Origin: Candidatus Omnitrophota bacterium
GTDB lineage: Bacteria > Omnitrophota > Gorgyraeia > Gygaellales > Profunditerraquicolaceae
DNA: 64,000 bases
Assembly (NCBI GenBank): GCA_028716965.1
Contig: JAQUOV010000002.1
Coordinates: 2,113-66,112, forward strand
Reading direction: 5' to 3'
Positions 4,136-36,036 of this stretch are shown one piece after another (within the stretch, counting starts at the first letter, position 1; each line of letters begins with the position of its first letter). Under the pieces are notes generated by a model. The model worked only from the letters and a program-made list of their open reading frames with translations. It was not told where the DNA came from and searched no databases. The position numbers and the translations under genes were made by a program.

Positions 4136-4137
4136 CG

Positions 4138-5739: not shown

Positions 5740-5757
5740 CGCCTATAGAACTTAAAG

Positions 5758-6783: not shown

Positions 6784-6807
6784 TGCCGATAAGCCTTGTT
6801 TTAATTT

Positions 6808-9223: not shown

Positions 9224-9229
9224 ATATCC

Positions 9230-10207: not shown

Positions 10208-10210
10208 GGG

Positions 10211-12225: not shown

Positions 12226-12231
12226 CTTTCT

Positions 12232-13206: not shown

Positions 13207-13207
13207 G

Positions 13208-14290: not shown

Positions 14291-14300
14291 AACTATTGGC

Positions 14301-15338
14301 CTAAAAAGTGGGCTTATTCAACACAGGTTTATCTTTAAAAGGTAACTCATCTTCATAGAAACAATTAATCATAATATGACAATTTTTCTTACAACCATAT
14401 ACCTCTTTTCTTGTTTCTTGTGTTTTAACTGAATCCCACAATACAGCAAGATTATCGGTTTTAATATTCCCGATCCCCTCAGTCAAACAACAAAAGAAAA
14501 TCTTTCCATATGGATCTACGTGAAATTCATAATCGCCGAGATTACATTTTATTTTCTTTAGAAATATGTTCGGTTCAGCAAAATATTCATTAAAATGCAG
14601 GAAATGATTTTGATGGTTTCCAATTTTATATCCGCTAGCCTTCATTTTTTTTAAGCATCTCATAACTTTTGAAACTTTCTTCAAATCGTCGGGCCAAAGG
14701 AATCTGTTTTTGTCGTTCTTAAACCAGTCCCTATCCATCTCTTGGCAAAAAGGCTGCGTTACTGCCTGAAAGCTGATCATCTCTATTTTTCTGTTTCTTT
14801 GTGTCCATTTCGCAAGCTTTAAGATCTCATTCAGGTTAGTTTTCATTATTGTCGTAAGGATCGCTATCTTTAATTTACTGCCCTTGCGATACTTGTCTAA
14901 ATACTCTATGGCCTTGATTATCCTTCTAAAGCTACCCTTTACTCCTCTTATAAAATCGTGCGTTTGCGACCGTATACCATCCAACGATAAAGTGAGAGTA
15001 CCCAACTTTGAGTTAACGATCTCCTTTGCCATTAGTTCATCTATAAGGAAGCCATTAGTCACTATATTTGTCCTGTAACCTTCTCCTGAAATAAAATTAA
15101 CCAGCTCCAATACCCCCTCAGACATCAACGGTTCTCCTCCCGACAAATGAAACTCAAAATCCGTATCAACGAAGCCACGCAGAGATCGCACAAAATTCTT
15201 TTTTTGCTGCATAGTAGTCTGTGTATTATAATCATCCTTTATATTCCAGATATTGCACATCTTGCATCTAAACATGCAGCGGTAATTAATCACCCAGCAG
15301 CAAAAACGGGGCTTAAGTAGAGGATTATAGCTATCCAT
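14301..15338 (-). CDS. Radical SAM/SPASM-domain protein, tandem-array paralog
   Basis: CMFRCKMC, SGGEPLMSEG, and C-terminal CNLGDYEF...FCCLTEGIGNIKT...CKKNCHIMINCFY. Confidence 0.75.
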   Translation of the reverse strand: MDSYNPLLKPRFCCWVINYRCMFRCKMCNIWNIKDDYNTQTTMQQKKNFVRSLRGFVDTDFEFHLSGGEPLMSEGVLELVNFISGEGYRTNIVTNGFLIDELMAKEIVNSKLGTLTLSLDGIRSQTHDFIRGVKGSFRRIIKAIEYLDKYRKGSKLKIAILTTIMKTNLNEILKLAKWTQRNRKIEMISFQAVTQPFCQEMDRDWFKNDKNRFLWPDDLKKVSKVMRCLKKMKASGYKIGNHQNHFLHFNEYFAEPNIFLKKIKCNLGDYEFHVDPYGKIFFCCLTEGIGNIKTDNLAVLWDSVKTQETRKEVYGCKKNCHIMINCFYEDELPFKDKPVLNKPTF

Positions 15339-15348
15339 AATTTAAAAT

Positions 15349-16347
15349 TCAGGTTGAATATAGAGACTGGTCGTCTTCTATATAACAACAATTGAGCAAT
15401 AAGTGGCAATTTGTTTTACAGTCATTTACTTTATTCCTAATGGCCGCAGCATCCTGTGAATACCATAACTCCCTGATATCGTTATCTCTTATATTGCCGA
15501 TAAAATCTTTAAAAAGACAGAGCTGTATAAAACCATATGCATTAACGCTTATCGCTTTGCCGCCTACAATACACTTGGCTCTATTGACAAACTTCTGAGG
15601 ATTGTTAAAGTAGGCTTTGTAAGCCCTTAAATGCTCAACCCGATTACTTATCTTTGAACCGTTTTGCTTTCGCCTTATCAATTCCTCAATAACAGAAAGT
15701 ACTTTGTTTTTATCTTTCGGCCAAAGATATTGGTATTCATCCTGCCAGTTATCCGTTAAGGGCCCACTGTAGTTAGGTTGAACAACTACCATAAAATACA
15801 GCCAATCAACTAAATCATTTTCTTCAGCCCACCCGGTCAAAGTAAGCAAATCCTCAATATTCTCATTCATGATGATGCAGCAAATTCCTTTCTTCGTATT
15901 ACGGGAGTACCTGCTTAAGTTATCTAAAGCTTCCATGAGGCGCTGATAAACACCGCTTTTACCCCGGATCCTATCGTGTACTTCCGGACGAAAACTATCA
16001 AGAGAGAGGCTTATCGCATCAAGACCGGAATTGCCGATTTTTTTTGCCATTTCCTTATCGATAAGATATCCGTTTGAGGCTACCGTAGTTCTGAATCCTT
16101 TTTGTTTAGCAAATTTTATTAAATCCAAAATCCCGGGCATAGAAAGCGCCTCGCCTCCCCCAAAATCCAATTCAAAATCTTTATCAACTAATTCACGGAA
16201 TCCGCTGATAAAATTCTTCCATTCTTCCAACGAAGGCAACTCTTCTTTTTTCGGAAGGGGCTCCTGCCATTTATTACACATTTTACAGCGCAACATGCAA
16301 AAATCAGTAGCTGCAATACAGCAAAATTTAGGTTTTATATCATTCAT
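15349..16347 (-). CDS. Radical SAM/SPASM-domain protein, tandem-array paralog (start moved to the internal ATG)
   Basis: CMLRCKMC, GGGEALSMPG, and C-terminal CIVGGK...LCLFKDFIGNIRD...CKTNCHLLLNCCY. The track start at 16440 would overlap the upstream gene by 83 bp. The ATG at M32 (16347) is preceded by AAGGAG and gives the N-terminal length seen in the paralogs. Confidence 0.7.
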   Translation of the reverse strand: MNDIKPKFCCIAATDFCMLRCKMCNKWQEPLPKKEELPSLEEWKNFISGFRELVDKDFELDFGGGEALSMPGILDLIKFAKQKGFRTTVASNGYLIDKEMAKKIGNSGLDAISLSLDSFRPEVHDRIRGKSGVYQRLMEALDNLSRYSRNTKKGICCIIMNENIEDLLTLTGWAEENDLVDWLYFMVVVQPNYSGPLTDNWQDEYQYLWPKDKNKVLSVIEELIRRKQNGSKISNRVEHLRAYKAYFNNPQKFVNRAKCIVGGKAISVNAYGFIQLCLFKDFIGNIRDNDIRELWYSQDAAAIRNKVNDCKTNCHLLLNCCYIEDDQSLYST

Positions 16348-16357
16348 ACATATCTCC

Positions 16358-17401
16358 TTATTTAGTGATAAAAGGATAATCCCCTTCAAAAAAGCAATTA
16401 AGTAAAAAGTGGCAATTATCCTGACATTTTCTGATATCATTTCTGGCTAGCTCTGCTTTTTCAGAATGCCAAATTCTCCCTATATCGTCACCGTTCTTGA
16501 TATTTCCTAAAAGCGCATATCGAAAGCACAAAAATATATCCCCTATCGAACTAACGTGTATTGCCCGGTCCAGATTGCAGGGATTCTTCTTGACGAACCG
16601 GGAAGGGTTATTAAAATAAGCCTTGAATGCTTCCAACTGCTCTACAGAGTTTCCTATCCAGTGCCCTAATTTTCTGCGTCTTATTAACTCATCAATAATT
16701 TCATTGGTTTTTTTAAGATCCTTGGGCCAAAAATAATCATATTTATTTTTATACCACTCTTCGTCAAATTCCGTATTATTCGGTTGCATTGCTGCCATAA
16801 ATAAAATAGAGTTAGTCATATCTCTGTTGCTATTCACCCATTCCGCTAAATGCAGCAGTCCACCAACGGTCTGCTCCATGATAATACTGCAAATTCCCAC
16901 ATGGATAGTCTTTGAATAATGTCTGATATATTTAATGGCATTCAATACCCGCTGCGCGACACCCTCTACCCCCCGCATAGAGTCATGAATTTCCGGCAGA
17001 AGGCTGTCCAGCGACAGGATAATACTGTCTAAGCCTGAATTCACTATTTTTTGGGCCATTTTCTCATCAATAAGGAAACCATTTGAAGCAATAGTAGTCT
17101 TAAAACCTAAGCTTTTAGAATAAGAAATTAATTCAAAGATATCCTCTTTCATTAAGGCTTCCCCGCCGCCGAAATCAATTTCAAACCCTGGGTCAACCAC
17201 ATCCCTTAATTGCTTAATAAATCTCTTCCATTCTTCGGTAGCAGGCTGGGGGATTCCCATCGTTCCGGCATCTTCCTTCCATTTCTGGCACATTTGACAT
17301 TTTAACATGCAACTGTCCACAATACCGATACAACAAAAACCTGGTTTTGCAATTTCCGGTTTTACGCTTGCGCTCTTATTCTTTTCTAACATATCATCCA
17401 T
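16358..17401 (-). CDS. Radical SAM/SPASM-domain protein, tandem-array paralog
   Basis: CMLKCQMC, GGGEALMKED, and C-terminal CNLDRA...LCFRYALLGNIKN...CQDNCHFLLNCFF. Confidence 0.75.
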   Translation of the reverse strand: MDDMLEKNKSASVKPEIAKPGFCCIGIVDSCMLKCQMCQKWKEDAGTMGIPQPATEEWKRFIKQLRDVVDPGFEIDFGGGEALMKEDIFELISYSKSLGFKTTIASNGFLIDEKMAQKIVNSGLDSIILSLDSLLPEIHDSMRGVEGVAQRVLNAIKYIRHYSKTIHVGICSIIMEQTVGGLLHLAEWVNSNRDMTNSILFMAAMQPNNTEFDEEWYKNKYDYFWPKDLKKTNEIIDELIRRRKLGHWIGNSVEQLEAFKAYFNNPSRFVKKNPCNLDRAIHVSSIGDIFLCFRYALLGNIKNGDDIGRIWHSEKAELARNDIRKCQDNCHFLLNCFFEGDYPFITK

Positions 17402-17423
17402 AACTTTTCCTTTATTTAAATTT

Positions 17424-18455
17424 CTATTCTATGGTAAAGGGGTAATCGCCCTTGAAATAGCAATTAAGCAAGAAATGGCAATTGTTTTTGCAATTTCCAA
17501 TATCCTCTCGGACTTGCGCCGCATTATCAGAACTCCAAAGTTGCGCGATATCATCCGTTTTAATATTCCCTAATTTTCCCCAATGATAGCAGAGGAATAT
17601 GTCGCCGCAGGAACTGATGTGCAATGCAGAGCCCATATTGCATTTTGTGGATTTCACAAAACGTTCAGGAAATTGATAGTATAATTTGAACGCCTCCAGC
17701 TGACAAACCTGATTCGTTATTTTAGAGTTATTTTTCTTTAGTTTTATAAGTTCATCTATAACCACGCATGCCCTTAGGGGGTCTTTCGGCCAAAGGCAAT
17801 CAAACTCTTCTTTTAAGTACCATTGTGCATCTAAAACTGTATTATTCGGCTGCATTGCTGCCATAAAATATACTGAATTCAATCTTTTATCGTTATCTAC
17901 CCATTCTGCAAGCTTAACTACATCTTCAATGTTTTTATCATATATCACAGAACATATTCCTTTATAAAGCTCACTGCAGGATTTATCCAGGGAACTTATG
18001 GCGCCCATTACTGCCCTATACACACCCTTGACTCCTCTTAAATAATCATGCGTGTCTTCTTGCAAGCTATCTAAGGATAAAATAATACTATCCAATCTTG
18101 AATCGGAGATTTTTTTTACAGTATTTTCGTCAATCAGATAACCGTTCGTTGCGATATTAACGTCCAACCTCTTCGATTTGCAAAAACTTACAAGTTCCCA
18201 AAGCCCCTCCTTCAATAGCGGCTCACCTCCGCCGAAATTTATTTGGATTGGCTTATCGGTTATCTTCTTTAAAGAATTCACGCAACGCTTCCAATCTTCC
18301 AGCGTAGGAGCACCTGTCCTATCTTTAATAAAAATGTCTTCCTTCCATTTCCGGCACATCTTGCATTTCAAAATACAATCATCTATAATGCCAAAACATA
18401 TAAAATCGGGCTTCACTTTCTGCTTTTCCCTTTTTCTAGAAATAATGGTTTTCAT
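17424..18455 (-). CDS. Radical SAM/SPASM-domain protein, tandem-array paralog (first gene of the array)
   Basis: CILKCKMC, GGGEPLLKEG, and C-terminal CNMGSA...LCYHWGKLGNIKT...CKNNCHFLLNCYF. A 167-bp non-coding region lies upstream (18456-18622). Confidence 0.75.
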   Translation of the reverse strand: MKTIISRKREKQKVKPDFICFGIIDDCILKCKMCRKWKEDIFIKDRTGAPTLEDWKRCVNSLKKITDKPIQINFGGGEPLLKEGLWELVSFCKSKRLDVNIATNGYLIDENTVKKISDSRLDSIILSLDSLQEDTHDYLRGVKGVYRAVMGAISSLDKSCSELYKGICSVIYDKNIEDVVKLAEWVDNDKRLNSVYFMAAMQPNNTVLDAQWYLKEEFDCLWPKDPLRACVVIDELIKLKKNNSKITNQVCQLEAFKLYYQFPERFVKSTKCNMGSALHISSCGDIFLCYHWGKLGNIKTDDIAQLWSSDNAAQVREDIGNCKNNCHFLLNCYFKGDYPFTIE

Positions 18456-18622
18456 TATCTACTGAATTTTCTCCAATCTATTCCCTTGCTTATGCATATA
18501 TTACGCCACGCTATATATTTAAACCCTCGCTTAAGCGCGTAGAAAAAACCGCCTGTTTTATTATGCTTCATGAATTTCTGCCAGAGTGTTTCTGCCATAT
18601 TCTGCCTCCTTTATCAAACCGT

Positions 18623-19852
18623 TCAGGTTGCTCTTACGGTTTTCAGAAAATGCGCAACCTCTCCAAGGATATGTTTCTTGAACCTGCCCAGCTTTACAAT
18701 CTTTTTGTGCATCTCCATCGTATGCCCAATATTATCACAACTCTTGTAACAACCCATAGTTACATCGGGATCATTGCCTATAAGAGAAAAAAGATTACCG
18801 GTTTTTTTAACCTTTGAGGTCTTTTCTCTAAAATACTGCTGCAACGCGCTATTCCAAATTTTACTGAATTTATCTTTATGAATATTGCCAACGGGAAAAC
18901 GGTGTGACTTAAGGCATGAATTTACGCTACCATCAGCCAATACCCTAACAAATGCCCATCCCACATAACAAGGCAATTTATCAATTATATCTGAATCGTA
19001 ATGTGCTGATTTTGCATCGGCATTCTCAACTCTACGGATAAATTGTTCGAAATTTAATATATTTGTTTTTTCTCTATTCATCCCAAATCCATATGCCAGT
19101 TTTAATTTCTTACATCGTTGCAATAAGTCGTACCTGTCTTTTTCACTTAGAAGCAACGTATCGGTCTTACCGGGTATAGTATCTATAACAGTAAACTCTA
19201 TTGATTCGGAGTTTGTTAAATCCCTGAGTTCCATCATATGCTCTATATCATGGTAGTTCAAATTAAAAATAACGTTATAGAGCTTTACTATTGGATATTT
19301 CTTCTTTTCCCTGTTTAAAAATACAAGCATTTCTTTTATCTTGTTGAAAGTCTTTTCATTTTTATTCGGATGTACAAGAGCGTATATACCCGCAGAACCT
19401 GCCCAGACACTGACAGTAAGATGATCGATTTTTAAATGAGTAAGTTTCTTTACTATCTTCTCATCCACTAAAGTAAAATTAGTATTTACATAACAAGTAA
19501 ACCCCTTTTTTTTAGTATAAGCAAGAATATCCATAATCTGGGGGTGCATAAATGGTTCTCCCCCACCGGCATAATAAATACTGGTTGTGCCCATACTGCA
19601 CAATTCATCCAACAACCCGATAATCTTTCCAAAGGGGATAGTTTGCCTTTTTGTCTCCGGTAATATTTTCTTTTCTCCCAAGAGAGGCGAATTACACCAA
19701 CACCCTATACAATCATTATTGCAATTATTGGTAAGGTCTATCTGAACAACATTTGGACCTTTATAGGCAAACGTACCATCTAAGATCCCTACAATATCTA
19801 AATAATCTGCGAAAATCTTTTTAAAATTTAAATAGCGCATATAATTTATCAA
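18623..19852 (-). CDS. Radical SAM/SPASM-domain protein from a different subfamily than the array
   Basis: NCNNDCIGCW (CxxxCxxC) and C-terminal CYVGWAF...SCLKSHRFPVGNI...CYKSCDNIGH. The track start is a TTG; the first ATG is at 19840. Confidence 0.6.
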   Translation of the reverse strand: MINYMRYLNFKKIFADYLDIVGILDGTFAYKGPNVVQIDLTNNCNNDCIGCWCNSPLLGEKKILPETKRQTIPFGKIIGLLDELCSMGTTSIYYAGGGEPFMHPQIMDILAYTKKKGFTCYVNTNFTLVDEKIVKKLTHLKIDHLTVSVWAGSAGIYALVHPNKNEKTFNKIKEMLVFLNREKKKYPIVKLYNVIFNLNYHDIEHMMELRDLTNSESIEFTVIDTIPGKTDTLLLSEKDRYDLLQRCKKLKLAYGFGMNREKTNILNFEQFIRRVENADAKSAHYDSDIIDKLPCYVGWAFVRVLADGSVNSCLKSHRFPVGNIHKDKFSKIWNSALQQYFREKTSKVKKTGNLFSLIGNDPDVTMGCYKSCDNIGHTMEMHKKIVKLGRFKKHILGEVAHFLKTVRAT

Positions 19853-19919
19853 TTACAATAATATTTTACACTATCTATACTGATATTGCCTTATAGTTCA
19901 GGTATAAAAAATAGGTTCT

Positions 19920-22103
19920 TCATTTGTAATGGGCGAGTTTACGTTTTCTAAAATCTTCTTCAACTATTTTGATTTTGACAGAAAATAAATTATTTTGGTT
20001 AAAAGAACTTTTGCCATTAAGGAACCTGCTTTTTACCTCAAGTACCCTGCCTCCGAGCTTAGTTTCGGAATTTTTTATCGCGGGGGCATATTCGCCTTTT
20101 AATCCCGATACATCCAACAGGCAAGTCGGCAGCTGTCCTTTTATTTTTTTCCGACCTCTTAATCCTATAAAAGGCGTATAAGGATTCTTAAGCTCAACTC
20201 GCGTCGTCTGGCCGCCCGGATCAAATCTCCCTTCTCCCCAAGAATCTATCCAAGTATGATACCGGGTTGACAAAATAAGCATCGTTTTGCTTACAAAAGC
20301 CTTTGTCCCATTTTTTAAAGCAACTTCTATATCCCAATCAATCTGTTTTTCATCTAGTATTTTTATCTTCCATACCTCATCCAGGAACTTATTATTTCTT
20401 CTTAATAATAATTCTGAATCACTCAATTTTTGGCAATCCCAATACCCTTGAGCCGGTTCTATCCTCTCCCCGTTGTCAAATTCAAAACAATTTGCAAATC
20501 CCCTGCCTCGCGTTAACTTCCTCCCTTCCCAGAATAAACTTAAATTTCCGTTTTCAAAAAGCAACGACAGCCTGCCAACATTTAATCCGCTAATTTTAAC
20601 CTGGGAAGCAAGATTCCTTTTACGCCATACACCTTCTTGAGATAAAACAAAAACCGTTCGAATCAAAAACCGGATAATCTTAACAGCAGTAATCAATAAG
20701 CCATGTTTTTTAAGATTCTTTTTCAATAGTAAAAAATACCCTGATTTCTTCGGGGCCCTTTTTGCACAATGCAAAGCCCATTCTTTATATGCGTATCGAA
20801 TAGCAAATGCCAAATTTTTTTCCGACAGCCGAGGATATGTTATTACACTTTTATTGTTTCCATCATATTCTGCCAGATCATCTGAAATTATATATCCGCT
20901 TTCCTTCATCTCCTTAAAAAATACCGTACCTGGAAACGGCGTAGCTATAGAAAACTGGATCGTAGCAGGGTCAAGCCTAAGCGCTAACTCTACCGTTTTA
21001 TAAATACTCTCTTTCGTTTCTCCAGGCAACCCGAAAGTAAAAGTCAAATGACTTTTAATACCCAGCATTTTAGTGAGCCTGATTATTTCTTCTGTTTTCT
21101 TGAGATTCATATTCTTGCCTGCCTTATCGATAAGTTCTTGACTTGCAGATTCTACACCATATTTTATTGCATACAAACCTGCCTGGCGCATTGCAACTAA
21201 AATTTCTTCATCCATCAAATCTGCTCTCGCCATTATCCCCCAGGGCACATTCAACGAACGTCTTTTAATCTCATCACATAGGCTAAACATCCTTTCCCTG
21301 CCGCAATTAAAAGTATCATCGTCAAAATATACGGATTTAAAATGCATCTTTTTTACTAAATACTCCATTTCATCAACGATATCTTTTACGTCCCTAGTTC
21401 TATACTGGTTACTTTGGTACATAACCTGCGGCCAAAGGCAAAATTTACATCTATATGGACAGCCGCGGCTGGCAAGCATCTGTACTGAAGGAAGGGGCAT
21501 ATCTCCCGGTGTATCATTATATCTTTCCATAGGTAATCCTTCACGCAATGGCCAAGGCATCTTATTTAAATCAACCAACGCACGCAAAGAAGTTATTCTG
21601 ATACCTCCCGCATCACGGTAAATAAGCCCTGCGACATCATTTAAGCTATTATTTGCTTTTAAGTTAGTGACTAAATCCAAAAGCGTAAATTCATACTCGC
21701 CTACAAGCACATACTTAATGAAAGGGTACTTTTTAAGGAAGGCTGGCTGTCTTATGGTAATGTCCGGACCGCAAATTGCGATGGGAATATCCTTGCCGAT
21801 TTTTTCAAGTATCCCCATGTCATGGATCAGGCTTACCGTTGAGGTCTCGCATACTAAAAGCTGAGGATTTATTTTTCTTATCTGCCTGAAGAAAGTACCA
21901 TAACTCTTTTTCTCTGCAATCGCATCTACTAACTCAACGTCAAAGTTGTTTTGCTTAAGGAGTGCAGCCGCATACGCTAAAAAGAAAGGAAAAGGCAGGT
22001 AATCTTTTTCAGTTGGTCCTTTTAAATGCGGCCAGCGCGAGCCAGCTCTTACCCCTGTTTTTCCAAAGCTTTTCCAGGGTAAATTAGCAAGAATTATTTT
22101 CAT
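19920..22103 (-). CDS. B12-binding radical SAM protein with a C-terminal extension of about 220 aa homologous to the Wzt C-terminal repeat
   Basis: CPYRCKFC at about residue 214 after a B12-binding-like N-terminus. The C-terminal segment LSLLFENGNLSLFWEGRKL...VWKIKILDEKQIDWDIEV...YHTWID aligns with repeat C of ORF 25303-28125 (LFWEGVEL...QWEIALLNEKTIQWNIRQ...YREW). Confidence 0.7.
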   Translation of the reverse strand: MKIILANLPWKSFGKTGVRAGSRWPHLKGPTEKDYLPFPFFLAYAAALLKQNNFDVELVDAIAEKKSYGTFFRQIRKINPQLLVCETSTVSLIHDMGILEKIGKDIPIAICGPDITIRQPAFLKKYPFIKYVLVGEYEFTLLDLVTNLKANNSLNDVAGLIYRDAGGIRITSLRALVDLNKMPWPLREGLPMERYNDTPGDMPLPSVQMLASRGCPYRCKFCLWPQVMYQSNQYRTRDVKDIVDEMEYLVKKMHFKSVYFDDDTFNCGRERMFSLCDEIKRRSLNVPWGIMARADLMDEEILVAMRQAGLYAIKYGVESASQELIDKAGKNMNLKKTEEIIRLTKMLGIKSHLTFTFGLPGETKESIYKTVELALRLDPATIQFSIATPFPGTVFFKEMKESGYIISDDLAEYDGNNKSVITYPRLSEKNLAFAIRYAYKEWALHCAKRAPKKSGYFLLLKKNLKKHGLLITAVKIIRFLIRTVFVLSQEGVWRKRNLASQVKISGLNVGRLSLLFENGNLSLFWEGRKLTRGRGFANCFEFDNGERIEPAQGYWDCQKLSDSELLLRRNNKFLDEVWKIKILDEKQIDWDIEVALKNGTKAFVSKTMLILSTRYHTWIDSWGEGRFDPGGQTTRVELKNPYTPFIGLRGRKKIKGQLPTCLLDVSGLKGEYAPAIKNSETKLGGRVLEVKSRFLNGKSSFNQNNLFSVKIKIVEEDFRKRKLAHYK

Positions 22104-22107
22104 ATAG

Positions 22108-25100
22108 CTATAATTTCAATAAAAATTTACTTAAACTATATTTATCCATTAATTCATTTATTCTAAAAATTACCTGGTGAGTATCGCAATGCTTACAAAA
22201 CTCATCATATAACTTAATCCCATTGGCAAGTGTGGCCTCTTTATTCTCTGCGATGTATTTAGCCTGGATCCTTATCTTGTTATACTCTCCAGAATTCCAT
22301 ATCTCTTTAAAACATTTTCCGTTTATGCTGTCAATAATACGCAGATGGCAACAAATACTTACATCTCCTTTTGCTAAAATGAGGCTAAAAAACCAGCCCA
22401 CGGGACAACCAAGCCTAAAAGGCAGCTCTTCTGACCAATCTCCTGTTGTTGGATTATAATTCTCAAGTTGAAACTTTATATTATTCTGCAATTCTATATC
22501 CTCTTTCTTCAGGAACTGTTCAACATCCTTTAAAGACTTTCTTAAGAAACTAATATGCTCAGCTTCCAATTGAAGGGACTTAATATTTTTGTCTAAGCGC
22601 GCCAGATAAAACCTGGTTTTGTCCGCACCTATAAGCGCATCAATCTTTGCCATTTCTCCTAACTCATGATAATTTAAATTATGGATAACGTGTGTCATCT
22701 GCAGAAGCGGTTTATTTTTGCCGGACTTCTCTCTTAGATGCATTAGATGCTTTAAATTATTAACGACTTTATGAAATGTTTCTTTTGTACGAGATGAATT
22801 AATCCGTGCGTATGTCTCTTCCGTCCCAGCAGGAAGGCTGCAGAAAATCTCATTTATTTCCAGATCTACTATTTTCTTAGCTTTTTCTTCATCCAAAAGG
22901 ATGGCGTTTGTAAAAAATAACACCTTTAAACCTTTATCTCTGGCATAGCCGGCCATTTCAAAAAACCTATCATCTAAAAGCGGCTCTCCATCACCCTGGA
23001 ATATGATTTCATCACATAAAAGCTCGACTGCGTTATCCACTATTCCTTTAAATAATTCAAAATCCATCTTTGCTTTTACTCCTGGAACAGAAAGTTTGCG
23101 AACCGGTGTATGTATCCAGCAGTGGATGCAGTTTGTATTACATTTATGAAATGTATCGATCACTATCGTCTGAGGGCCGATAAAAGGATGCTCTACAATC
23201 ACCCCTAAAAGCCTTATTAGATCTTTCTCATTATACTGATCTGCCTGGGAAGACACAGTATGCAATAACTGCGGCAAGTCTTGGTCTTTTAAGAAAAAAC
23301 TAATGTTATCGGTTTGAATGCGCAGCTGAAGTTCTTTTACATACTCAATGAAGTTTGTATAAAGCTTTTTCACCGGGAAAATATCCAAAGTAACGCACCG
23401 CAAGTCTACCCGCTGATTAATGAGATTTGAATAAAATTGAGCAATTTCATTCAATCTAAAAAAGTTGTATTTTGATATACCGATTTTTATACTTATCCTC
23501 CTCTGAAACGGAAGCTTTAGTTTCGAAATGACTTTTTCAAAATCCCCTGTGGTCCCGCTTATCCTGTCGTGGATAATCTGGCTATCTCCAAACACAAAAA
23601 CTTCATTATCTTCAACTGTATGTGTTTTTAAGGAATCCAACTCCAGATTTTCTGCTAGCTGGAATACATCGGAACTCTTGACAAGTCTGCGATTAAACCT
23701 ATTCATTACGCGTTCCAAAACGGATACATCTTTATAAAACTTGATAGATATTTTAAAATTAGGATAAACTCCCGGATGAATCAATTCTTTTTTCTCTTCA
23801 TGAGCGGCAGTAAGGACTCGCGAACTCACTATGGCATCAGAATTTTGAATGGTTAAGACGTCATCTTTTCCGATATGGCGCACATACAATAATATGGAAG
23901 GAAAATCTTTCAAATGTGAGGTTAAGCCTATAAAAAACGGTTTTCTCTGGATGAGGTGGATGTCTTTAAATTCTGGAGAAAAGGCAGGGAAACCGCCCAT
24001 TTTTGCACGGGAAAACCAATCGTTATACCCCTTGCTTAAAAACAAGGAGGCATTGCTTTGATCTATGCGCAAAGAATCTCGCACCTGTATACTTTCCTCC
24101 CATAATAAATTGTTATCTTTTAAAACTAAATGCCATCGGTAGGTGATAGGAAGATGTTTATGGGTTAAATGCGCGACTAATTCCTGAGAAGACAAATTAT
24201 CTATCTGCGCTTCTGAATCTGAAGAACCAAACCAACGCCCCTCTGAAAGTATGCGCGTATAAAGCCCCCACCATTTAGTAATCTCAGATCCATTATTGTA
24301 TATATGAACACGGTTTTCTTCATCAATGTATATTTTAAGATTGCTATTTTGGAGAGTACGATTTCTTTTCTCCTGGGCCTTGCGTTCCTCCTGCCTTTTC
24401 CTCTCCTCCTCCGCTAGTTCCTCCTGCCTTTTCCTCTCCTCCTCCGCTAGTTCCTCCTGCCTTTTCCTCTCCTCCTCCGCTAGTTCCTCCTGCCTTTTCC
24501 TCTCCTCCTCCTGCTGTAAAAAAATACCTCTTTCGTAACTCTCCCTGATTTCTTGCAATTTATCTTCCAGTATAATCTTATCCGGATAGAATTCTATTAT
24601 TGCTTTAAAATAACGGTATGTTCCGCTGCTATATATTTCTTCTTTTTCCTCAAGTTGCATCTTAAGCACGCGGGCTGAAAAACGCTCGTCGGTATTCTGA
24701 ATCGCCAGCTCCGTATTTGGACCACCATCGTTCTTAAGGGTAATACTCGGAAAATCTTGGGATGAAGAAATTACTCCAATAAAGTCGGGGTTATTTTCTG
24801 ATAACACTATATTCGTCCACTCTTTAGTAAATTCCGTTTGAAAATTATCCTGCGCTAAAGGAACAGTCCATTCCTGATAATTCTTTGATAAAAATAAAGC
24901 CGCATTTCTTCTATCAACCCGTAATGAATCTTTTAGCTGGATGTGCACATCCCAGGAAATTATATTCTGGGGCATTAGTACAAGGTGCCAGACTTGAATA
25001 AGCGGAAGAGGCGTAAAATTAAAATAAATAAAAAACTCCCCTTGCGATACCTTTTCTATCTTGAGGCTGCAATCTGAAGAACTATACCATTTTCCGTCAG

Positions 25101-25299
25101 AAAATATCCCCGTGCTTAAGCCAAACCATTTGGTAATTTCGTTATCTTTATAATAAATCCTGAATCTGTTTTCTTCATCAATCCAAAGCCTTAATCCTTC
25201 CTGGGAGATCGTGCGAGAATTCATCTGTTTTTGAATCTGCGTTTTTCTATACCCCTTTAGCTTCCTTTTAATAGCTGCCATTAAACTTAACATATACAC
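22108..25299 (-). CDS. Giant multidomain radical SAM protein: two N-terminal Wzt-C-like repeats split by an (EEERKRQEELA)n charged linker, then an rSAM/SPASM catalytic region
   Basis: CNTNCIHCW at about residue 715 with a C-terminal Cys cluster. Residues about 34-250 and about 318-480 are internal repeats (WFGLSTGIFSDGKWY...PLPLIQVWHLVL...ISWDVHIQ against WWGLYTRILSEGRWF...HLPITYRWHLVL...LLWEESIQ). Both resemble the Wzt C-terminal repeats. The track start is a GTG; the first ATG is at 25293. Confidence 0.7.
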   Translation of the reverse strand: MYMLSLMAAIKRKLKGYRKTQIQKQMNSRTISQEGLRLWIDEENRFRIYYKDNEITKWFGLSTGIFSDGKWYSSSDCSLKIEKVSQGEFFIYFNFTPLPLIQVWHLVLMPQNIISWDVHIQLKDSLRVDRRNAALFLSKNYQEWTVPLAQDNFQTEFTKEWTNIVLSENNPDFIGVISSSQDFPSITLKNDGGPNTELAIQNTDERFSARVLKMQLEEKEEIYSSGTYRYFKAIIEFYPDKIILEDKLQEIRESYERGIFLQQEEERKRQEELAEEERKRQEELAEEERKRQEELAEEERKRQEERKAQEKRNRTLQNSNLKIYIDEENRVHIYNNGSEITKWWGLYTRILSEGRWFGSSDSEAQIDNLSSQELVAHLTHKHLPITYRWHLVLKDNNLLWEESIQVRDSLRIDQSNASLFLSKGYNDWFSRAKMGGFPAFSPEFKDIHLIQRKPFFIGLTSHLKDFPSILLYVRHIGKDDVLTIQNSDAIVSSRVLTAAHEEKKELIHPGVYPNFKISIKFYKDVSVLERVMNRFNRRLVKSSDVFQLAENLELDSLKTHTVEDNEVFVFGDSQIIHDRISGTTGDFEKVISKLKLPFQRRISIKIGISKYNFFRLNEIAQFYSNLINQRVDLRCVTLDIFPVKKLYTNFIEYVKELQLRIQTDNISFFLKDQDLPQLLHTVSSQADQYNEKDLIRLLGVIVEHPFIGPQTIVIDTFHKCNTNCIHCWIHTPVRKLSVPGVKAKMDFELFKGIVDNAVELLCDEIIFQGDGEPLLDDRFFEMAGYARDKGLKVLFFTNAILLDEEKAKKIVDLEINEIFCSLPAGTEETYARINSSRTKETFHKVVNNLKHLMHLREKSGKNKPLLQMTHVIHNLNYHELGEMAKIDALIGADKTRFYLARLDKNIKSLQLEAEHISFLRKSLKDVEQFLKKEDIELQNNIKFQLENYNPTTGDWSEELPFRLGCPVGWFFSLILAKGDVSICCHLRIIDSINGKCFKEIWNSGEYNKIRIQAKYIAENKEATLANGIKLYDEFCKHCDTHQVIFRINELMDKYSLSKFLLKL
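24385..24516 (-). repeat. Perfect 33-bp tandem repeat, 4 copies, in-frame within CDS 22108-25299. It encodes (EEERKRQEELA)4, an E/R/K-rich linker that probably forms a single alpha helix
   Basis: The plus-strand unit ttcctcctgccttttcctctcctcctccgctag is repeated head-to-tail from 24385; the last copy has a variant end. It translates on the minus strand to LAEEERKRQEE repeats. Confidence 0.8.
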
Positions 25300-25302
25300 C
25301 CC

Positions 25303-28125
25303 TTAATCTCCGACTGTTATCCTGCCACTGAAATAGAGTTTGTCGGCTTCCTGCTTTTCGAAACTGCTATTCAACATCAGTTCACATTGTAAAGCTCTTG
25401 CTTTAAAAAAACTATCAGTATTCTCAATCGCAAAGTAACGGGCTTGATGCCCATCATTGCAATCTAAAGTAATCGCAGGAAGGATCTGGCCATTGGATAC
25501 TGCCTCTCCGGTCCTGTCGCAATACACACCTATCGGCTTACTTGTATCGCCACACCATATCCTGTCCCAGAACATGCCATTATGTTCGATAAATTCATCT
25601 GAAAATGATCCTTTTATCTTATTGCGCACAGACCATTCCCTGTAGCTATCTGTGAGCATAAGATTAACCTGTCCTTTTTGCAAAATAAAATGCTCCCAAA
25701 TCTCCTGCCGTATATTCCATTGTATCGTCTTTTCGTTCAACAAAGCTATCTCCCACTGCTGTATAAGAGGGACCCATGGCCATCTGCTTACAACTACTAT
25801 CTTATTTTCTAACGACTCGTTTATCTGCCATAAAGCCTGGGTTGAATCACACCATATGTCTGAATATTGCACCGAAGTATAGAGCCCTAATTTCTTACTT
25901 AACTCTACCCCCTCCCAAAAAAGACGAATTTTACCATATTCAAAAACCAAAGACGTTCTTCCCCGTTCTAACTTGGCTAAAGCACACTTCTGCCGGCTGT
26001 CTATCATAATCTTATCGGTCTCTGCTGACGATGCTTCAAGCTCTTTTTCACCCGCGCCCACTCTTACCTCTCCCCCGAAATACTGGTATACTCCGGACTC
26101 CATATCGGGATCTTCTTGTTCGTCAACCTCTACAAAAAATAACCTCGTAATTAAATTATCATCTCTGGGTTGGGAAAGATAGGATACGTAAGGGACTGCT
26201 GCATTATGGCTAAATAAAACCTTTGGCAAGGCAACTTTACCGCTTTCATCCAACAACTCAACCCCGGTATATTTATTTATGTATTTATTAAGAATGGCTA
26301 ATTTCCCTTGTTTATCTTTCCCTTGAAAACTCCCCTTTTCATCCGGCGTTATCCAGTCTTTATACCGGCCGCTAAGCATAAGCTCTGTTTGTTTCTCTCT
26401 TATTTTTACTTTCCCGCTAATTTCCATCTTTACATTCCATGAAATTAGATTACCGCTTTTCAAGCTTAACTTCCAGACTTGGGACAATTGCGAAAGCATA
26501 TCCCAAGAAATAGCGATCGTAATCTCGTCCTTATTTTCCTTACGTATAATCCAATTCCCCTCCTGGGCGTTATATCTTTGATCATTGCATTTAAATCTTG
26601 TATTAAAACCTGTGGAATGCGTTATTAACTCATTATTAAAATATAATTCAACTTTTTTCTCATGGCAACGAAGGATAAGCGGCCCTTTACTTATTTCTGC
26701 CGATTCCTGCTTTACTGTTTTGGCATTCTCTATATAGGTTTTGAGAATTTTATCCTCGGCATCAAAAACAGTTATCTTAGAGAGAAAACAACGGCACTGC
26801 TCAAGTGAATCTTTGCCTGTCGAAGAGGGTAAAAGAGGCTGGAAATGGATTAACCTGGCTTCCAGATCAGCTCCAGTATTACCAACCCGGCAAATCGTCA
26901 CAAAATCATTTTGTAATCTTTCAAAAAGCAGGGTAGGCAATAAATCCTGCTTGTCCTTTTCTCCGGACAATCCAATAATTTTATTTGTCGTATCATCGAC
27001 TGTAATTAAGTCAAACCTGCTTTCGTGGATAAATGAAGGAGGAAAATCCATTTCTCTGCCCAAGGCAAACCACTTAGTAAACTCATTGCTGAACATCAGG
27101 TCTATTGTGCACTTTTTAATACTGCCTTTGGAAACTTTATCTAAAATTACTTCCCAAATAAATTCTTTTTCGCTTAATACAGTTATTTTCCAGCGCAAAG
27201 AAACAGGAAGGTCGGGCCATCTTCCTACGGCGTTAATTTCATTTTCCGCTCCACTGTCAGATACTTCCCAGCAGGCAGCAGCAGAAAGAAACTCTTTTCC
27301 CGATGAGATTAACCTGGAATGCCCTGCCGAATTAGGCGTTATAGTCTTTTCTTTCCATCTTAAAATAAGCTTACCATTGTTAAAAATAACGCCTAACTTG
27401 CCTTTCTGCGCAATAGCAATGCCTTTTTTATCGCCTATCGATTCAAGATAATAACTGCATACTTCTTCTATGGGGCCATCTTTAATCATTGAGCCTTCCC
27501 TGATAAGAATGCCCCGGGAGCATAACCGCTTTGCCATCTCTATATCATGAGTTACAAGTATGATAGTTTTACCTTTTTGCTTTAATTCAAACATCTTATT
27601 GATGCATTTTTTTTGAGCATACATATCGCCTACTGCAAGGATATCATCTACGAGCAAGACTTCCGGATCAATGTGTATTGCAATAGCAAATGCCAAACGC
27701 ATATACATGCCCTGAGAATAACTTTGTACAGGGGCATTGATGAATCTTCCTATGCCGGCAAAGTTTACTATATCGTTATACTTATCATCTGTCTGTTCTT
27801 TGGTAATGCCGAACAACGAAGAGATAAGATATATGTTCTCTCTTCCGGTAAGCTCTTTTTGAAAACCAGCCCCGATTTCCATAAGCACAGAAATCCTGCC
27901 CTGCACAGTTACGGCTCCCTTGTCCGGCTCCAACATACCGGCAATGATCTTTAATAGCGTAGTCTTACCCGCGCCGTTCTCCCCTAAGATAGCGGTACAT
28001 TCTCCTTTTTTTATGCTAAAGTGCATCCCTTTAAGCGCCCAAAAGTCTTCCCGGGATGTTTTCCCATTTATTTTAAATTCAACCCTATATTTTAACCAAA
28101 CGTCATTTAACGATACTGTTTCCAT
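25303..28125 (-). CDS. wzt: Wzt/TagH/KpsT-family ATP-binding subunit of a polysaccharide ABC exporter, with a C-terminal extension of about 700 aa holding three copies of a Trp-rich, presumed carbohydrate-binding domain
   Basis: Walker A GENGAGKTT, ABC signature YSQGMYMRL (the Wzt/TagH-type variant), and Walker B LLVDDILAVGD. It sits directly beside an ABC-2 permease. The C-terminus carries three mutually similar repeats of roughly 200 aa. Confidence 0.8.
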   Translation of the reverse strand: METVSLNDVWLKYRVEFKINGKTSREDFWALKGMHFSIKKGECTAILGENGAGKTTLLKIIAGMLEPDKGAVTVQGRISVLMEIGAGFQKELTGRENIYLISSLFGITKEQTDDKYNDIVNFAGIGRFINAPVQSYSQGMYMRLAFAIAIHIDPEVLLVDDILAVGDMYAQKKCINKMFELKQKGKTIILVTHDIEMAKRLCSRGILIREGSMIKDGPIEEVCSYYLESIGDKKGIAIAQKGKLGVIFNNGKLILRWKEKTITPNSAGHSRLISSGKEFLSAAACWEVSDSGAENEINAVGRWPDLPVSLRWKITVLSEKEFIWEVILDKVSKGSIKKCTIDLMFSNEFTKWFALGREMDFPPSFIHESRFDLITVDDTTNKIIGLSGEKDKQDLLPTLLFERLQNDFVTICRVGNTGADLEARLIHFQPLLPSSTGKDSLEQCRCFLSKITVFDAEDKILKTYIENAKTVKQESAEISKGPLILRCHEKKVELYFNNELITHSTGFNTRFKCNDQRYNAQEGNWIIRKENKDEITIAISWDMLSQLSQVWKLSLKSGNLISWNVKMEISGKVKIREKQTELMLSGRYKDWITPDEKGSFQGKDKQGKLAILNKYINKYTGVELLDESGKVALPKVLFSHNAAVPYVSYLSQPRDDNLITRLFFVEVDEQEDPDMESGVYQYFGGEVRVGAGEKELEASSAETDKIMIDSRQKCALAKLERGRTSLVFEYGKIRLFWEGVELSKKLGLYTSVQYSDIWCDSTQALWQINESLENKIVVVSRWPWVPLIQQWEIALLNEKTIQWNIRQEIWEHFILQKGQVNLMLTDSYREWSVRNKIKGSFSDEFIEHNGMFWDRIWCGDTSKPIGVYCDRTGEAVSNGQILPAITLDCNDGHQARYFAIENTDSFFKARALQCELMLNSSFEKQEADKLYFSGRITVGD

Positions 28126-28130
28126 GCGCT

Positions 28131-28913
28131 CTAAATATACTTTAAAATATCTGTCTCTCTCTTAATAAAAACATAATACCCGATGCTTATACTGATAAAG
28201 GAAGATACTGCAGCCAATACCCAGCAATACAATGAGCCGGGAGAACCACTATAAAGCAATGACCTGTATATAACCGCGAAACTTGAGGCGGGATTTAACC
28301 AGACAATCCAACGTAACCCTAAGGGGATTACCTCCGCGGAATAGAATATCGGCGTCATCCAAAACAGGAGCATTACTCCTATATTCAATAAATACGCTAA
28401 ATCCTTACAGTATACATTCACTATGCTAAATAGCAGACAGGCACCTAACGTAAAAATAAAATGCAGTAAAATTGCTGCCGGCAATAACCATATATATCTT
28501 AAAATATCCATATTAATTACGGCAAAAAACGGAAGAATAATGATAAAACCGAATAGGAAATTCATAAAGTTGGCGCAAACCACTGCTATTGGTATTATTT
28601 CCCGCACTATAATAAATTGATTTAATATCCCCTTGTTTTTTTCCATTGAGGTAGTGGATTCCGTCAAAGAATTCACAAAGAAAAAAAATGGCAGGAGCGC
28701 GCTTAAAACATAGGAAGGGAAGTTCTTTATTCCTGTTTTCATTAGATTCGTAAAGACAAAATTAATCGCGATCATCAGCAACAAAGGATTTATAATAGCC
28801 CAAAAATACCCTAAATGAGAACCGACGTATTTATCTCTAAGGTTTTTTCTCACCATGCCGGACAAAATTTGTCTTTGCGCCGATAATTTATTAAATCTCT
28901 TCTTTAAATACAT
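28131..28913 (-). CDS. wzm: ABC-2-type polysaccharide exporter permease (Wzm/TagG-like)
   Basis: 260 aa with 6 predicted TM helices. Its position 5-prime of the Wzt ATPase and its size are typical of Wzm. Confidence 0.7.
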   Translation of the reverse strand: MYLKKRFNKLSAQRQILSGMVRKNLRDKYVGSHLGYFWAIINPLLLMIAINFVFTNLMKTGIKNFPSYVLSALLPFFFFVNSLTESTTSMEKNKGILNQFIIVREIIPIAVVCANFMNFLFGFIIILPFFAVINMDILRYIWLLPAAILLHFIFTLGACLLFSIVNVYCKDLAYLLNIGVMLLFWMTPIFYSAEVIPLGLRWIVWLNPASSFAVIYRSLLYSGSPGSLYCWVLAAVSSFISISIGYYVFIKRETDILKYI

Positions 28914-36033: not shown

Positions 36034-36036
36034 TTT

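What the first reader, a model, noticed from the sequence alone, without database searches (positions are those of the whole stretch)
24385..24516. Perfect 33-bp x4 in-frame tandem repeat encoding an ER/K-type single alpha-helix spacer between two glycan-binding-like repeats
Four head-to-tail, nearly error-free copies of a 33-bp unit encode (EEERKRQEELA)n inside the 1063-aa rSAM protein, exactly between its two Wzt-C-like repeats.

E/R/K-rich heptad-free repeats of this kind form stable single alpha helices that act as rigid molecular rulers. Sequence perfection at the DNA level implies recent expansion, and slipped-strand copy-number change is likely.

Linker length could tune the distance between the two binding modules or between binding module and catalytic site. 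That would work as a ruler for the modification position along a polymer.
Basis: partly seen in the sequence, partly recalled or inferred. Interest (0 to 1): 0.55.

Follow-up and report, generated by a model that had tools for sequence, protein, structure and literature searches.

The report
Length-variable charged helix spacer in enzyme
A perfect 33-base repeat inside a bacterial radical-SAM enzyme gene encodes part of a long, highly charged single helix that separates two sugar-binding-like modules, and relatives carry different repeat numbers, so this spacer changes length quickly in evolution.

Summary
Window 24384..24511 (minus strand) holds 3.9 copies of a 33-bp unit at 100% identity, the only strong tandem repeat in the 64 kb. 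It encodes (EEERKRQEELA)x3 + EEERKRQEE in a 1063-aa radical SAM/SPASM protein of a Candidatus Omnitrophota MAG.

AlphaFold2 places it in one continuous 73-residue helix (aa 241-313, about 11 nm) between two ~210-aa all-beta domains. The charge pattern matches ER/K single alpha-helices and does not fit a heptad coiled coil.

Orthologues at about 80% identity carry 2, 3 or 4 units. Units are identical within a lineage but differ between lineages, mostly at synonymous sites, so the arrays were recently expanded or homogenised.

Across the family the ER/K linkers span 28-301 aa, built from lineage-specific repeats. Two otherwise identical protein pairs differ only by linker indels.

The flanking domains are paralogues of three repeats in the adjacent Wzt ATPase and one in the next B12-rSAM. 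They are galactose-mutarotase-like supersandwiches, not Pfam Wzt_C.

The ruler function remains untested. Sister clades, including a Wzt-rSAM fusion, lack the helix. Verdict: a real and fairly interesting new member of the SAH-spacer kind.

The parts
24384..24511 (-). 33-bp x 3.9 perfect in-frame tandem array encoding (EEERKRQEELA)x3 + EEERKRQEE (ORF aa 264-305)
   Evidence: TRF 100% match, score 256; codon layout
24361..24579 (-). Whole predicted single helix, ORF aa 241-313 (73 aa, about 11 nm), running from the C-terminal helix of domain 1 through the ER/K repeat to the first strand of domain 2
   Evidence: AF2 full-length model, DSSP H241-313, pLDDT 81 falling to 49 and rising to 86; ER/K charge pattern
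24586..25212 (-). Supersandwich domain 1 (ORF aa 30-238), all-beta, putative glycan/polymer-binding module
   Evidence: AF2 pLDDT 91.4; Foldseek PDB hits to galactose-mutarotase-like domains, E down to 8e-8
23734..24357 (-). Supersandwich domain 2 (ORF aa 315-522), 43% identical to domain 1
25216..25296 (-). N-terminal basic helix (aa 2-28), role unknown
   Evidence: AF2 H2-28; modest amphipathicity, muH 0.40
22648..23151 (-). Radical SAM core (aa 717-884, CNTNCIHCW cluster motif)
   Evidence: PF04055 E=1.8e-14; best structural rSAM match is DesII
22186..22407 (-). SPASM auxiliary Fe-S domain (aa 965-1038)
   Evidence: PF13186 E=8e-7
22108..25299 (-). Whole gene: helix, domain 1, ER/K helix, domain 2, middle region, rSAM/SPASM (1063 aa)
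25303..28125 (-). Adjacent Wzt-type ABC ATPase (940 aa) with three C-terminal copies of the same supersandwich domain (about 25306-25974, 25990-26718, 26722-27420) and no ER/K linker
   Evidence: PF00005, NCBIfam TagH/Wzt; BLASTP/HMM to rSAM domains, E 2e-19
28131..28913 (-). Wzm-type ABC-2 permease
   Evidence: PF01061; NF050109
19920..22103 (-). B12-binding rSAM (727 aa) with one C-terminal copy of the same domain (aa 508-718, about 19950-20582)

Best explanation
The array is a genuine, recently expanded in-frame minisatellite. It supplies the central 42 residues of a 73-residue ER/K-type single alpha-helix.

Shown by computation:
- The helix starts as the native C-terminal helix of the first supersandwich domain and runs without a break to the first strand of the second. 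It would hold the two modules about 11 nm apart.
- Each 11-residue unit would add about 1.65 nm and about 3.06 helical turns, so the relative rotation of the two modules would change by only about 20 degrees per unit.
- The length changes quickly. Units are gained, lost or homogenised by slippage or unequal recombination between identical 33-bp copies. The peptide itself is kept by purifying selection.

Inferred:
- The two modules, like their paralogues on the neighbouring Wzt ATPase and B12-rSAM enzyme, bind the same lipid-linked polymer that Wzm/Wzt exports.
- The helix acts as a semi-rigid spacer or tether. It sets the reach and spacing of the distal binding module relative to the second module and the rSAM catalytic domain. 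It is not a flexible coil and not an oligomerising coiled coil.
For: - Repeat and frame.
- ER/K pattern: 0.86 attractive i/i+3 and i/i+4 charge pairs per residue and 7% strongly hydrophobic residues. The z-score is 4.7 against shuffles. This is close to the myosin VI ER/K helix (1.05) and unlike GCN4 or tropomyosin (0.18-0.27).
- Heptad a/d hydrophobic occupancy is 0.24, against 0.80-0.85 for true coiled coils.
- AF2 gives a single helix, aa 241-313, between two confidently folded beta domains.
- Copy number is 2, 3, 4 and 4 in orthologues. Units are identical within lineages and differ between them at 4-9 of 33 nt, mostly synonymous (7 synonymous against 1 non-synonymous codon, window vs L001).
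- Gene-wide DNA divergence is 16-20%. About 15 substitutions would be expected in the array if the copies were ancestral and not homogenised; none is seen, Poisson P about 3e-7.
- Family-wide, ER/K linkers follow this domain, with lineage-specific tandem repeats of 21-126 bp, several of them perfect.
- Two protein pairs are identical apart from a linker indel of 157 aa or 36 aa.
- The domain is shared by Wzt (x3), this rSAM (x2) and the B12-rSAM (x1) in a conserved cluster. Natural Wzt-rSAM fusions exist (L027/L063).
- The domain fold matches carbohydrate-handling supersandwich domains.
- SAHs are defined and used as spacers in PMC10335832.
Against: - AF2 pLDDT falls to about 49-51 in the middle of the helix (aa 271-290), so disorder or bending is not excluded.
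- The L and A of each unit give a narrow hendecad stripe (a,d,e,h occupancy 0.43), so weak self-association cannot be ruled out.
- The segment has a net charge of -8.
- Linker length is extremely unconstrained across the family, and the helix is absent in the 3-domain clade and in the fusion. Any spacing role is therefore clade-specific and tolerant.
- Glycan binding by the domains is inferred only from fold and context. No ligand, polymerase or classical glycosyltransferase was identified next to Wzm/Wzt.
Confidence: 0.6

Rival explanations
1. Neutral, slippage-driven low-complexity expansion. The exposed E/K/R-rich C-terminal helix of the domain is a tolerant site where tandem duplications accumulate. 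The segment is merely a permissive tether, helical or disordered, and its length has no tuned function.
For: - The length range is huge, 28-301 aa, and otherwise identical proteins differ by 36-157 aa.
- The helix is absent from the 3-domain clade and from Wzt-rSAM fusions.
- Repeat periods differ in every lineage.
- AF2 confidence is low in mid-helix.
Against: - All complete 2-domain members examined keep at least 28 aa of ER/K.
- The unit peptide is conserved while its codons diverge, 7 synonymous against 1 non-synonymous.
- Long, degenerate linkers still keep the i/i+4 salt-bridge order far above shuffled controls, z up to 16. This implies selection for helix-forming pattern and not only for composition.
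Confidence: 0.25
2. Oligomerising coiled coil, a WbdD/WbbB-type molecular ruler. [quoted passage not shown]
For: - In ABC-transporter-dependent pathways where Wzt carries a binding module, a protein with an extended helical ruler is a hallmark (PMC11231755 and PMC5082667).
- The locus has Wzm and a Wzt with binding-type domains.
- L/A recur every 11 residues, hendecad occupancy 0.43.
Against: - Heptad a/d occupancy is 0.24, against 0.80-0.85 in real coiled coils. There is one strong hydrophobe per 11 residues, and distant homologues have none (0.13-0.15).
- The helix lies between two binding modules, not between a membrane anchor and a terminator domain.
- No kinase, methyltransferase or GT terminator, and no polymerase, was found.
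Confidence: 0.08
3. Assembly artefact: the array, or its copy number, is created by mis-assembly of short reads.
For: The source is a metagenome-assembled genome. Perfect repeats are prone to collapse. The longer-linker indels (157 aa, flanked by repeats of at least 40 identical residues) could be collapses.
Against: - The array is 128 bp, short enough for single reads to span.
- Four independently assembled lineages carry the homologous array.
- The 3-unit protein is carried by five contigs, and the loci read from three JGI samples have identical arrays.
- The reading frame is preserved in every case.
Confidence: 0.04

Closest known systems
ER/K (charged) single alpha-helix domains: myosin VI/VII/X lever extensions, caldesmon, drebrin, CAF-1 KER
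   Same: High E+K/R content with i/i+3 and i/i+4 opposite charges and no hydrophobic seam. It is predicted as an isolated long helix bridging two folded domains as a spacer (PMC10335832).
   Different: It is bacterial (Omnitrophota) and sits in a radical SAM enzyme. It is built from a perfect DNA minisatellite, and its length is hypervariable between close relatives. Family members are predicted to reach about 300 aa, whereas the longest characterised SAH is 90 aa according to PMC10335832. Net charge is negative, so it is not a DNA binder like KER. No biophysical data exist.
Coiled-coil molecular rulers of ABC-transporter-dependent O-antigen assembly (WbdD of E. coli O9a; WbbB of Klebsiella O12)
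   Same: The genomic logic is the same: Wzm plus a Wzt with C-terminal binding modules, next to a modifying enzyme that contains a long helical spacer. In those systems helix length changes product length (PMC5082667, PMC11231755).
   Different: The helix here is a single-helix type, not a heptad trimer. It lies between two binding modules, not between a membrane anchor and a terminator. The enzyme is a radical SAM/SPASM protein, not a kinase, methyltransferase or GT. No effect on chain length has been shown.
Wzt C-terminal carbohydrate-binding module (Pfam Wzt_C, PF14524)
   Same: The position is the same, C-terminal to the Wzt nucleotide-binding domain, and the presumed role in recognising the exported polymer is the same. 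The flanking domains of the rSAM are paralogues of the neighbouring Wzt's own C-terminal repeats.
   Different: There is no HMM match to PF14524 or to any Pfam family. The domains are ~210-aa supersandwiches of the galactose-mutarotase type, present in 2-8 tandem copies.
In-frame variable-number tandem repeats in bacterial genes
   Same: Perfect head-to-tail units whose length is a multiple of three. Copy number differs between related strains, and the copies evolve in concert.
   Different: The repeat encodes an intracellular enzyme linker and not a surface antigen. Variation within a population was not examined.

Membership tests
ER/K single alpha-helix (SAH) | Dense pattern of oppositely charged E and K/R residues spaced i/i+3 and i/i+4 | tested here: met
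   0.86 attractive pairs per residue, z=4.7 against shuffles, comparable to myosin VI (sequence from memory) at 1.05
ER/K single alpha-helix (SAH) | No hydrophobic heptad seam, so not a coiled coil | tested here: met
   Best-register a/d occupancy 0.24, against 0.80-0.85 for GCN4 and tropomyosin; 7% strong hydrophobes. Caveat: hendecad occupancy is 0.43 from L/A.
ER/K single alpha-helix (SAH) | Continuous helix without tertiary contacts | tested here: inconclusive
   AF2 DSSP gives a helix over aa 241-313, but pLDDT is only about 50 at aa 271-290.
ER/K single alpha-helix (SAH) | Monomeric; helical CD spectrum; non-cooperative thermal unfolding | not testable with these tools
   Requires purified peptide. 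These criteria are as stated in PMC10335832.
WbdD/WbbB-type coiled-coil molecular ruler | Locus with a Wzm/Wzt exporter whose Wzt carries C-terminal binding module(s) | tested here: met
   Wzm at 28131..28913; Wzt at 25303..28125 with three C-terminal domains
WbdD/WbbB-type coiled-coil molecular ruler | Extended heptad coiled coil that oligomerises | tested here: not met
   No heptad core. Oligomeric state itself was not testable.
WbdD/WbbB-type coiled-coil molecular ruler | Helix separates a chain-terminating catalytic module from a membrane-anchor or polymerase-recruitment end | tested here: not met
   In the window protein the helix lies between two binding-type domains. The catalytic rSAM follows domain 2 without an ER/K linker. 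Distant homologues do have a second ER/K linker before the rSAM domain.
WbdD/WbbB-type coiled-coil molecular ruler | Helix length determines polymer chain length | not testable with these tools
   Needs genetics or biochemistry
Wzt_C carbohydrate-binding module (PF14524) | Match to the Pfam model | tested here: not met
   No hit for the Wzt, the rSAM or any of 18 domain copies, even at E<=10
Galactose-mutarotase-like supersandwich (carbohydrate-binding type) domains | Fold similarity to solved members | tested here: met
   Foldseek against PDB: GH-type N-domains, OpgG, YidC P1, 1,2-beta-oligoglucan phosphorylase and aldose 1-epimerase-like proteins; E 8e-8 to 1e-4; TMq 0.5-0.69; identity about 10%
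Galactose-mutarotase-like supersandwich (carbohydrate-binding type) domains | Demonstrated sugar binding or conserved binding residues | not tested
   Only W79, W91, F128 and P159 are invariant in the alignment. No ligand modelling was done.
In-frame VNTR | Copy number differs between related genomes while the unit is conserved | tested here: met
   4 (3.9), 4, 3 and 2 units in the window, L001, L002-4 and L005
In-frame VNTR | Copy-number heterogeneity within one population or sample | not testable with these tools
   No reads were available

The most novel reading that the evidence does not exclude
The ER/K helix is an evolvable single-helix molecular ruler for a radical-SAM modification of an undecaprenyl-linked (or similar) polymer at the Wzm/Wzt exporter. 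The enzyme docks at the transporter, with which it is naturally fused in some genomes. The helices (linker 1, plus linker 2 in other clades) set how far along the polymer the rSAM site acts or terminates. Minisatellite gain or loss of 11-residue (1.65 nm, about 3-turn) units then gives strains different product lengths or modification positions. This would be a SAH-based, VNTR-tunable analogue of the WbdD/WbbB coiled-coil ruler.
Probability: 0.15. Interest if true: 0.75.

Novelty: new member of a known kind. Interest (0 to 1): 0.5.

Why it matters
ER/K single helices are well studied as rigid spacers in eukaryotic motors and are used as engineered linkers, but natural bacterial examples with a clear domain context are scarce in the literature I could search.

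This family offers a natural length series, 28 to about 300 residues, at one fixed position between defined domains. The length steps are traceable to individual repeat gains. That makes it a ready-made system to test how spacer length affects a tethered enzyme.

If the spacer does tune where a radical SAM enzyme acts on an exported polymer, it would extend the molecular-ruler principle of O-antigen assembly to a new helix type and a new enzyme chemistry.

The work also exposes a large, uncurated supersandwich domain family on Wzt-type exporters: 623 cluster representatives and no Pfam model.

Tried and rejected
- The word-indexed protein search with the domain profile returned one fragment only. 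The exhaustive HMM search was needed instead.
- PDB sequence searches found no relative of the domain profile or of the C-terminal 503 aa.
- I tested whether the ER/K helix replaces the middle domain of the 3-domain clade. Pairwise scores give no one-to-one orthology between d1/d2 and dA/dB/dC, so the idea is unresolved and was dropped.
- I tested whether the N-terminal helix is a membrane-binding amphipathic helix like the WbdD anchor. The hydrophobic moment is only 0.40 and conservation is poor, so this is inconclusive.
- ER/K linkers in the neighbouring Wzt or B12-rSAM were absent in all 16 cluster Wzt proteins, so the linker is not a cluster-wide property.
- Literature searches for bacterial SAH linkers, for Omnitrophota rSAM clusters and for Wzt tandem modules found nothing describing this protein family. 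The Mann et al. 2019 survey of Wzt CBMs is not held.
- A plus-strand feature was considered. No ORF of at least 80 aa overlaps the array on the plus strand.
Full report
**1. The observation**

Window 24384..24511 contains 3.9 head-to-tail copies of a 33-bp unit with 100% matches and no indels (TRF score 256). It is the only tandem array scoring above 51 in the 64-kb window.

On the minus strand it is in frame within ORF 22108..25299. The three full units read GAGGAGGAGAGGAAAAGGCAGGAGGAACTAGCG. The fourth diverges after 28 nt.

The peptide is (EEERKRQEELA)x3 + EEERKRQEE, ORF residues 264-305.

**2. The protein and its setting**

The ORF is a 1063-aa radical SAM (aa 717-884) plus SPASM (aa 965-1038) protein. 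An identical NCBI entry, P0001, is labelled Candidatus Omnitrophica MAG.

Residues about 28-250 and 312-535 are two copies of one domain, 43% identical, E=4e-57. The same domain occurs three times in the C-terminal 700 aa of the adjacent Wzt-type ABC ATPase (25303..28125; BLASTP E 2e-19). It occurs once at the C-terminus of the next gene, a B12-binding rSAM (19920..22103). A Wzm permease lies upstream (28131..28913).

No Pfam model matches the domain, not even Wzt_C at E<=10. No PDB sequence is related.

An AF2 model of the domain built on an 18-sequence alignment is confident, with pLDDT 91.4 and pTM 0.88. It is an 18-strand all-beta domain ending in a helix.

Foldseek against the PDB matches galactose-mutarotase-like supersandwich domains. 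These include the N-domains of GH36, GH63, GH97 and GH129 enzymes, OpgG, 1,2-beta-oligoglucan phosphorylase, YidC P1 and aldose-1-epimerase-like proteins. E-values run from 8e-8 to 1e-4, TMq reaches 0.69, and identity is about 10%.

So 'Wzt-C-like' holds by paralogy and position, but the domain is not the canonical Wzt CBM. 'Glycan-binding-like' is a reasonable inference from fold.

An exhaustive HMM search finds 623 cluster representatives. Most are Wzt-type ATPases with 2-8 tandem copies, and about 20 are rSAM proteins.

**3. The helix**

The full-length AF2 model (14-sequence alignment, mean pLDDT 72.7) draws one uninterrupted helix over aa 241-313. It runs from the last strand of domain 1 (226-238) to the first strand of domain 2 (315-318). 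At 1.5 Å per residue, 73 residues come to about 11 nm.

pLDDT is 81 at the start, 49-51 in the middle (aa 271-290) and 86 at the end.

My own salt-bridge count gives 0.86 attractive i/i+3 and i/i+4 pairs per residue in the repeat, with z=4.7 against shuffles, and 7% strong hydrophobes. Comparators, with sequences taken from memory, are the myosin VI ER/K helix at 1.05 and GCN4 and tropomyosin at 0.18-0.27.

Best-register heptad a/d hydrophobic occupancy is 0.24, against 0.80-0.85 for real coiled coils. The L-A pair recurring every 11 residues gives a hendecad occupancy of 0.43. That is a narrow stripe which does not amount to a core but stops me from fully excluding weak pairing.

These features match the sequence definition of a SAH quoted in PMC10335832. 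The biophysical criteria (monomer, helical CD, non-cooperative melt) cannot be tested here.

By arithmetic on ideal alpha-helix geometry, an 11-residue unit equals 3.06 turns. Adding a unit lengthens the helix by about 1.65 nm and rotates the distal domain by only about 20 degrees.

**4. Copy-number change and concerted evolution**

Three orthologous lineages at about 79-80% protein identity, in the same gene order, carry the homologous array with 4 units (L001/P0003), 3 units (L002-L004/P0002) and 2 units (L005/P0004). The 3-unit protein is carried by five contigs. The three loci I read, from three JGI samples, have identical arrays.

Within each lineage the units are identical or nearly so. 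Between lineages they differ at 4-9 of 33 positions. Window vs L001 gives 7 synonymous and 1 non-synonymous codon differences.

Gene-wide DNA divergence is 16-20%. If the window's copies had been inherited unhomogenised since the split from L001, about 15 substitutions would be expected in the 128-bp array. None is seen, Poisson P about 3e-7.

The arrays are therefore being re-expanded or homogenised in each lineage, while the encoded peptide is conserved.

**5. The wider family**

Scans of genome and metagenome collections returned about 70 loci, almost all Omnitrophota. They share the conserved order Wzm, Wzt (3 domains), this rSAM, then the B12-rSAM (1 domain).

In the 2-domain clade an ER/K segment always follows domain 1 and spans 28-301 aa. 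Outside the window's subclade a second ER/K segment follows domain 2, up to 122 aa.

The linkers are made of lineage-specific DNA repeats with periods of 21, 33, 42, 51, 78, 87, 108 and 126 bp. Several are 100% identical, such as L043 (51 bp x 3.3) and L012 (108 bp x 2.0).

- P0010 and P0011 are identical apart from a 157-aa linker indel.
- P0007 and L012 are identical apart from one 36-aa unit.
- L043 carries the same 17-aa unit in both linkers. Its close relative L046 lacks domain 2, as expected from recombination between the two linkers.

Long degenerate linkers keep the salt-bridge order far above shuffles, with z up to 16. This argues for selection on helix-forming pattern.

Against a necessary or finely tuned role:
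- About 16 loci encode a 3-domain version with no ER/K at all.
- L027/L063 encode a single 1856-aa Wzt-rSAM fusion with five abutting domains and no ER/K.
- None of the 16 cluster Wzt proteins has an ER/K linker. About 10 of 84 Wzt-type ATPases elsewhere in the domain family do, with segments up to 143 aa.

**6. Mechanism**

The best-supported reading is a SAH-type semi-rigid spacer whose length evolves through minisatellite dynamics. It separates two polymer-binding-type modules of an rSAM enzyme that works with the Wzm/Wzt exporter.

Two observations support a shared substrate and physical proximity: the domain is shared among Wzt, this rSAM and the B12-rSAM, and natural Wzt-rSAM fusions exist. 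The catalytic domain's best structural match is DesII, a sugar-nucleotide rSAM, followed by the peptide maturases SuiB, SkfB and PqqE (also TIGR04426, E 9e-7).

In those systems a CBM-bearing Wzt goes together with a helical-ruler protein (PMC5082667, PMC11231755). Here, however, the helix is not a heptad coiled coil, it sits between two binding modules, and no terminator or polymerase module was identified.

I therefore treat 'works somewhat like a ruler or spacer' as possible, and 'is a WbdD-type ruler' as not supported.

**7. Rivals**

- Neutral low-complexity expansion: about 0.25.
- Oligomerising coiled-coil ruler: about 0.08.
- Assembly artefact: about 0.04.

Each is set out with its evidence in the rival section.

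**8. Novelty and score**

ER/K SAH spacers and in-frame VNTRs are both known kinds, and this is a new member of them. Its context is unusual: a bacterial rSAM enzyme tied to an O-antigen-type exporter.

Its natural length series is striking. Predicted helices reach about 300 aa, against 90 aa for the longest characterised SAH according to PMC10335832.

Interest is 0.5. The most novel reading not excluded is a VNTR-tunable single-helix molecular ruler for polymer modification, at about 0.15 probability.

Noticed in passing
window 367..25299 (minus strand); also 34630..38480, 45437..46852, 52599..53687: An extreme radical-SAM island. All 18 consecutive genes from 367 to 25299 hit PF04055, including ten tandem ~325-363-aa rSAM/SPASM paralogues (8216..18455). 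At least five more rSAM genes lie further along. Two carbamoyltransferases, two PMT_2/GT-C proteins, a polysaccharide deacetylase, a sulfatase and an aminotransferase are interspersed. No classical GT-A/GT-B was seen beside Wzm/Wzt.
   Followed up: partly
window 25306..27420, 23668..25224, 19923..20606; proteins P0014-P0160: The ~210-aa supersandwich domain is a large uncurated family. It has 623 cluster representatives at E<=1e-3 and no Pfam model. It is mostly found in 2-8 tandem copies on Wzt-type ABC ATPases.
   Followed up: partly
L027 and L063 (ORF from nt 1579, 1856-1865 aa): A natural fusion of the Wzt-type ATPase (Walker A plus three domains) with the rSAM enzyme (two domains plus rSAM/SPASM) in one polypeptide, without any ER/K linker. 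This is Rosetta-stone evidence that the rSAM acts at the exporter.
   Followed up: partly
window 18455..18598 (minus); L001 16674..16817; L002 16647..16793: A conserved 47-48-aa ORF (MAETLWQKFMKHNKTGGFFYALKRGFKYIAWRNICISKGIDWRKFSR) lies between the 409-aa rSAM/SPASM gene and the first of the ten rSAM/SPASM paralogues. It could be a small partner or a precursor peptide.
   Followed up: no
P0007, P0008, P0010 (domain 1 and domain 2 C-terminal ends): Within each of these proteins the last ~55 residues of domain 1 and domain 2, plus the start of the following linker, are identical. This indicates gene conversion between the two domain-linker junctions.
   Followed up: partly
L043 vs L046: Close relatives differ by the presence or absence of the whole second domain. 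The same 17-aa ER/K unit flanks the missing segment, so recombination between linkers appears to change domain number as well as linker length.
   Followed up: partly
window 24384..24511, mRNA sense (minus strand): Each unit is purine-rich and contains three GGAGG Shine-Dalgarno-like motifs, about 12 in the array. A possible effect on translation or DNA structure was not examined.
   Followed up: no
window 25216..25296 (ORF aa 2-28): A basic N-terminal helix precedes domain 1 (AF2 H2-28). It is weakly amphipathic (muH 0.40) and poorly conserved. It could be a docking or membrane-association element.
   Followed up: partly
P0012 (819 aa, partial, NCBI Omnitrophota): An odd relative: domain fragments, ER/K stretches and a different, smaller rSAM core alternate repeatedly in one partial protein.
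   Followed up: no
L008 4591..4690 and 4730..4829: Two runs of exactly 100 N lie inside the homologous rSAM gene region of a MAG labelled Planctomycetales. This is a scaffold gap or masking near the linker/domain region, a reminder that these repeats trouble assemblies.
   Followed up: no
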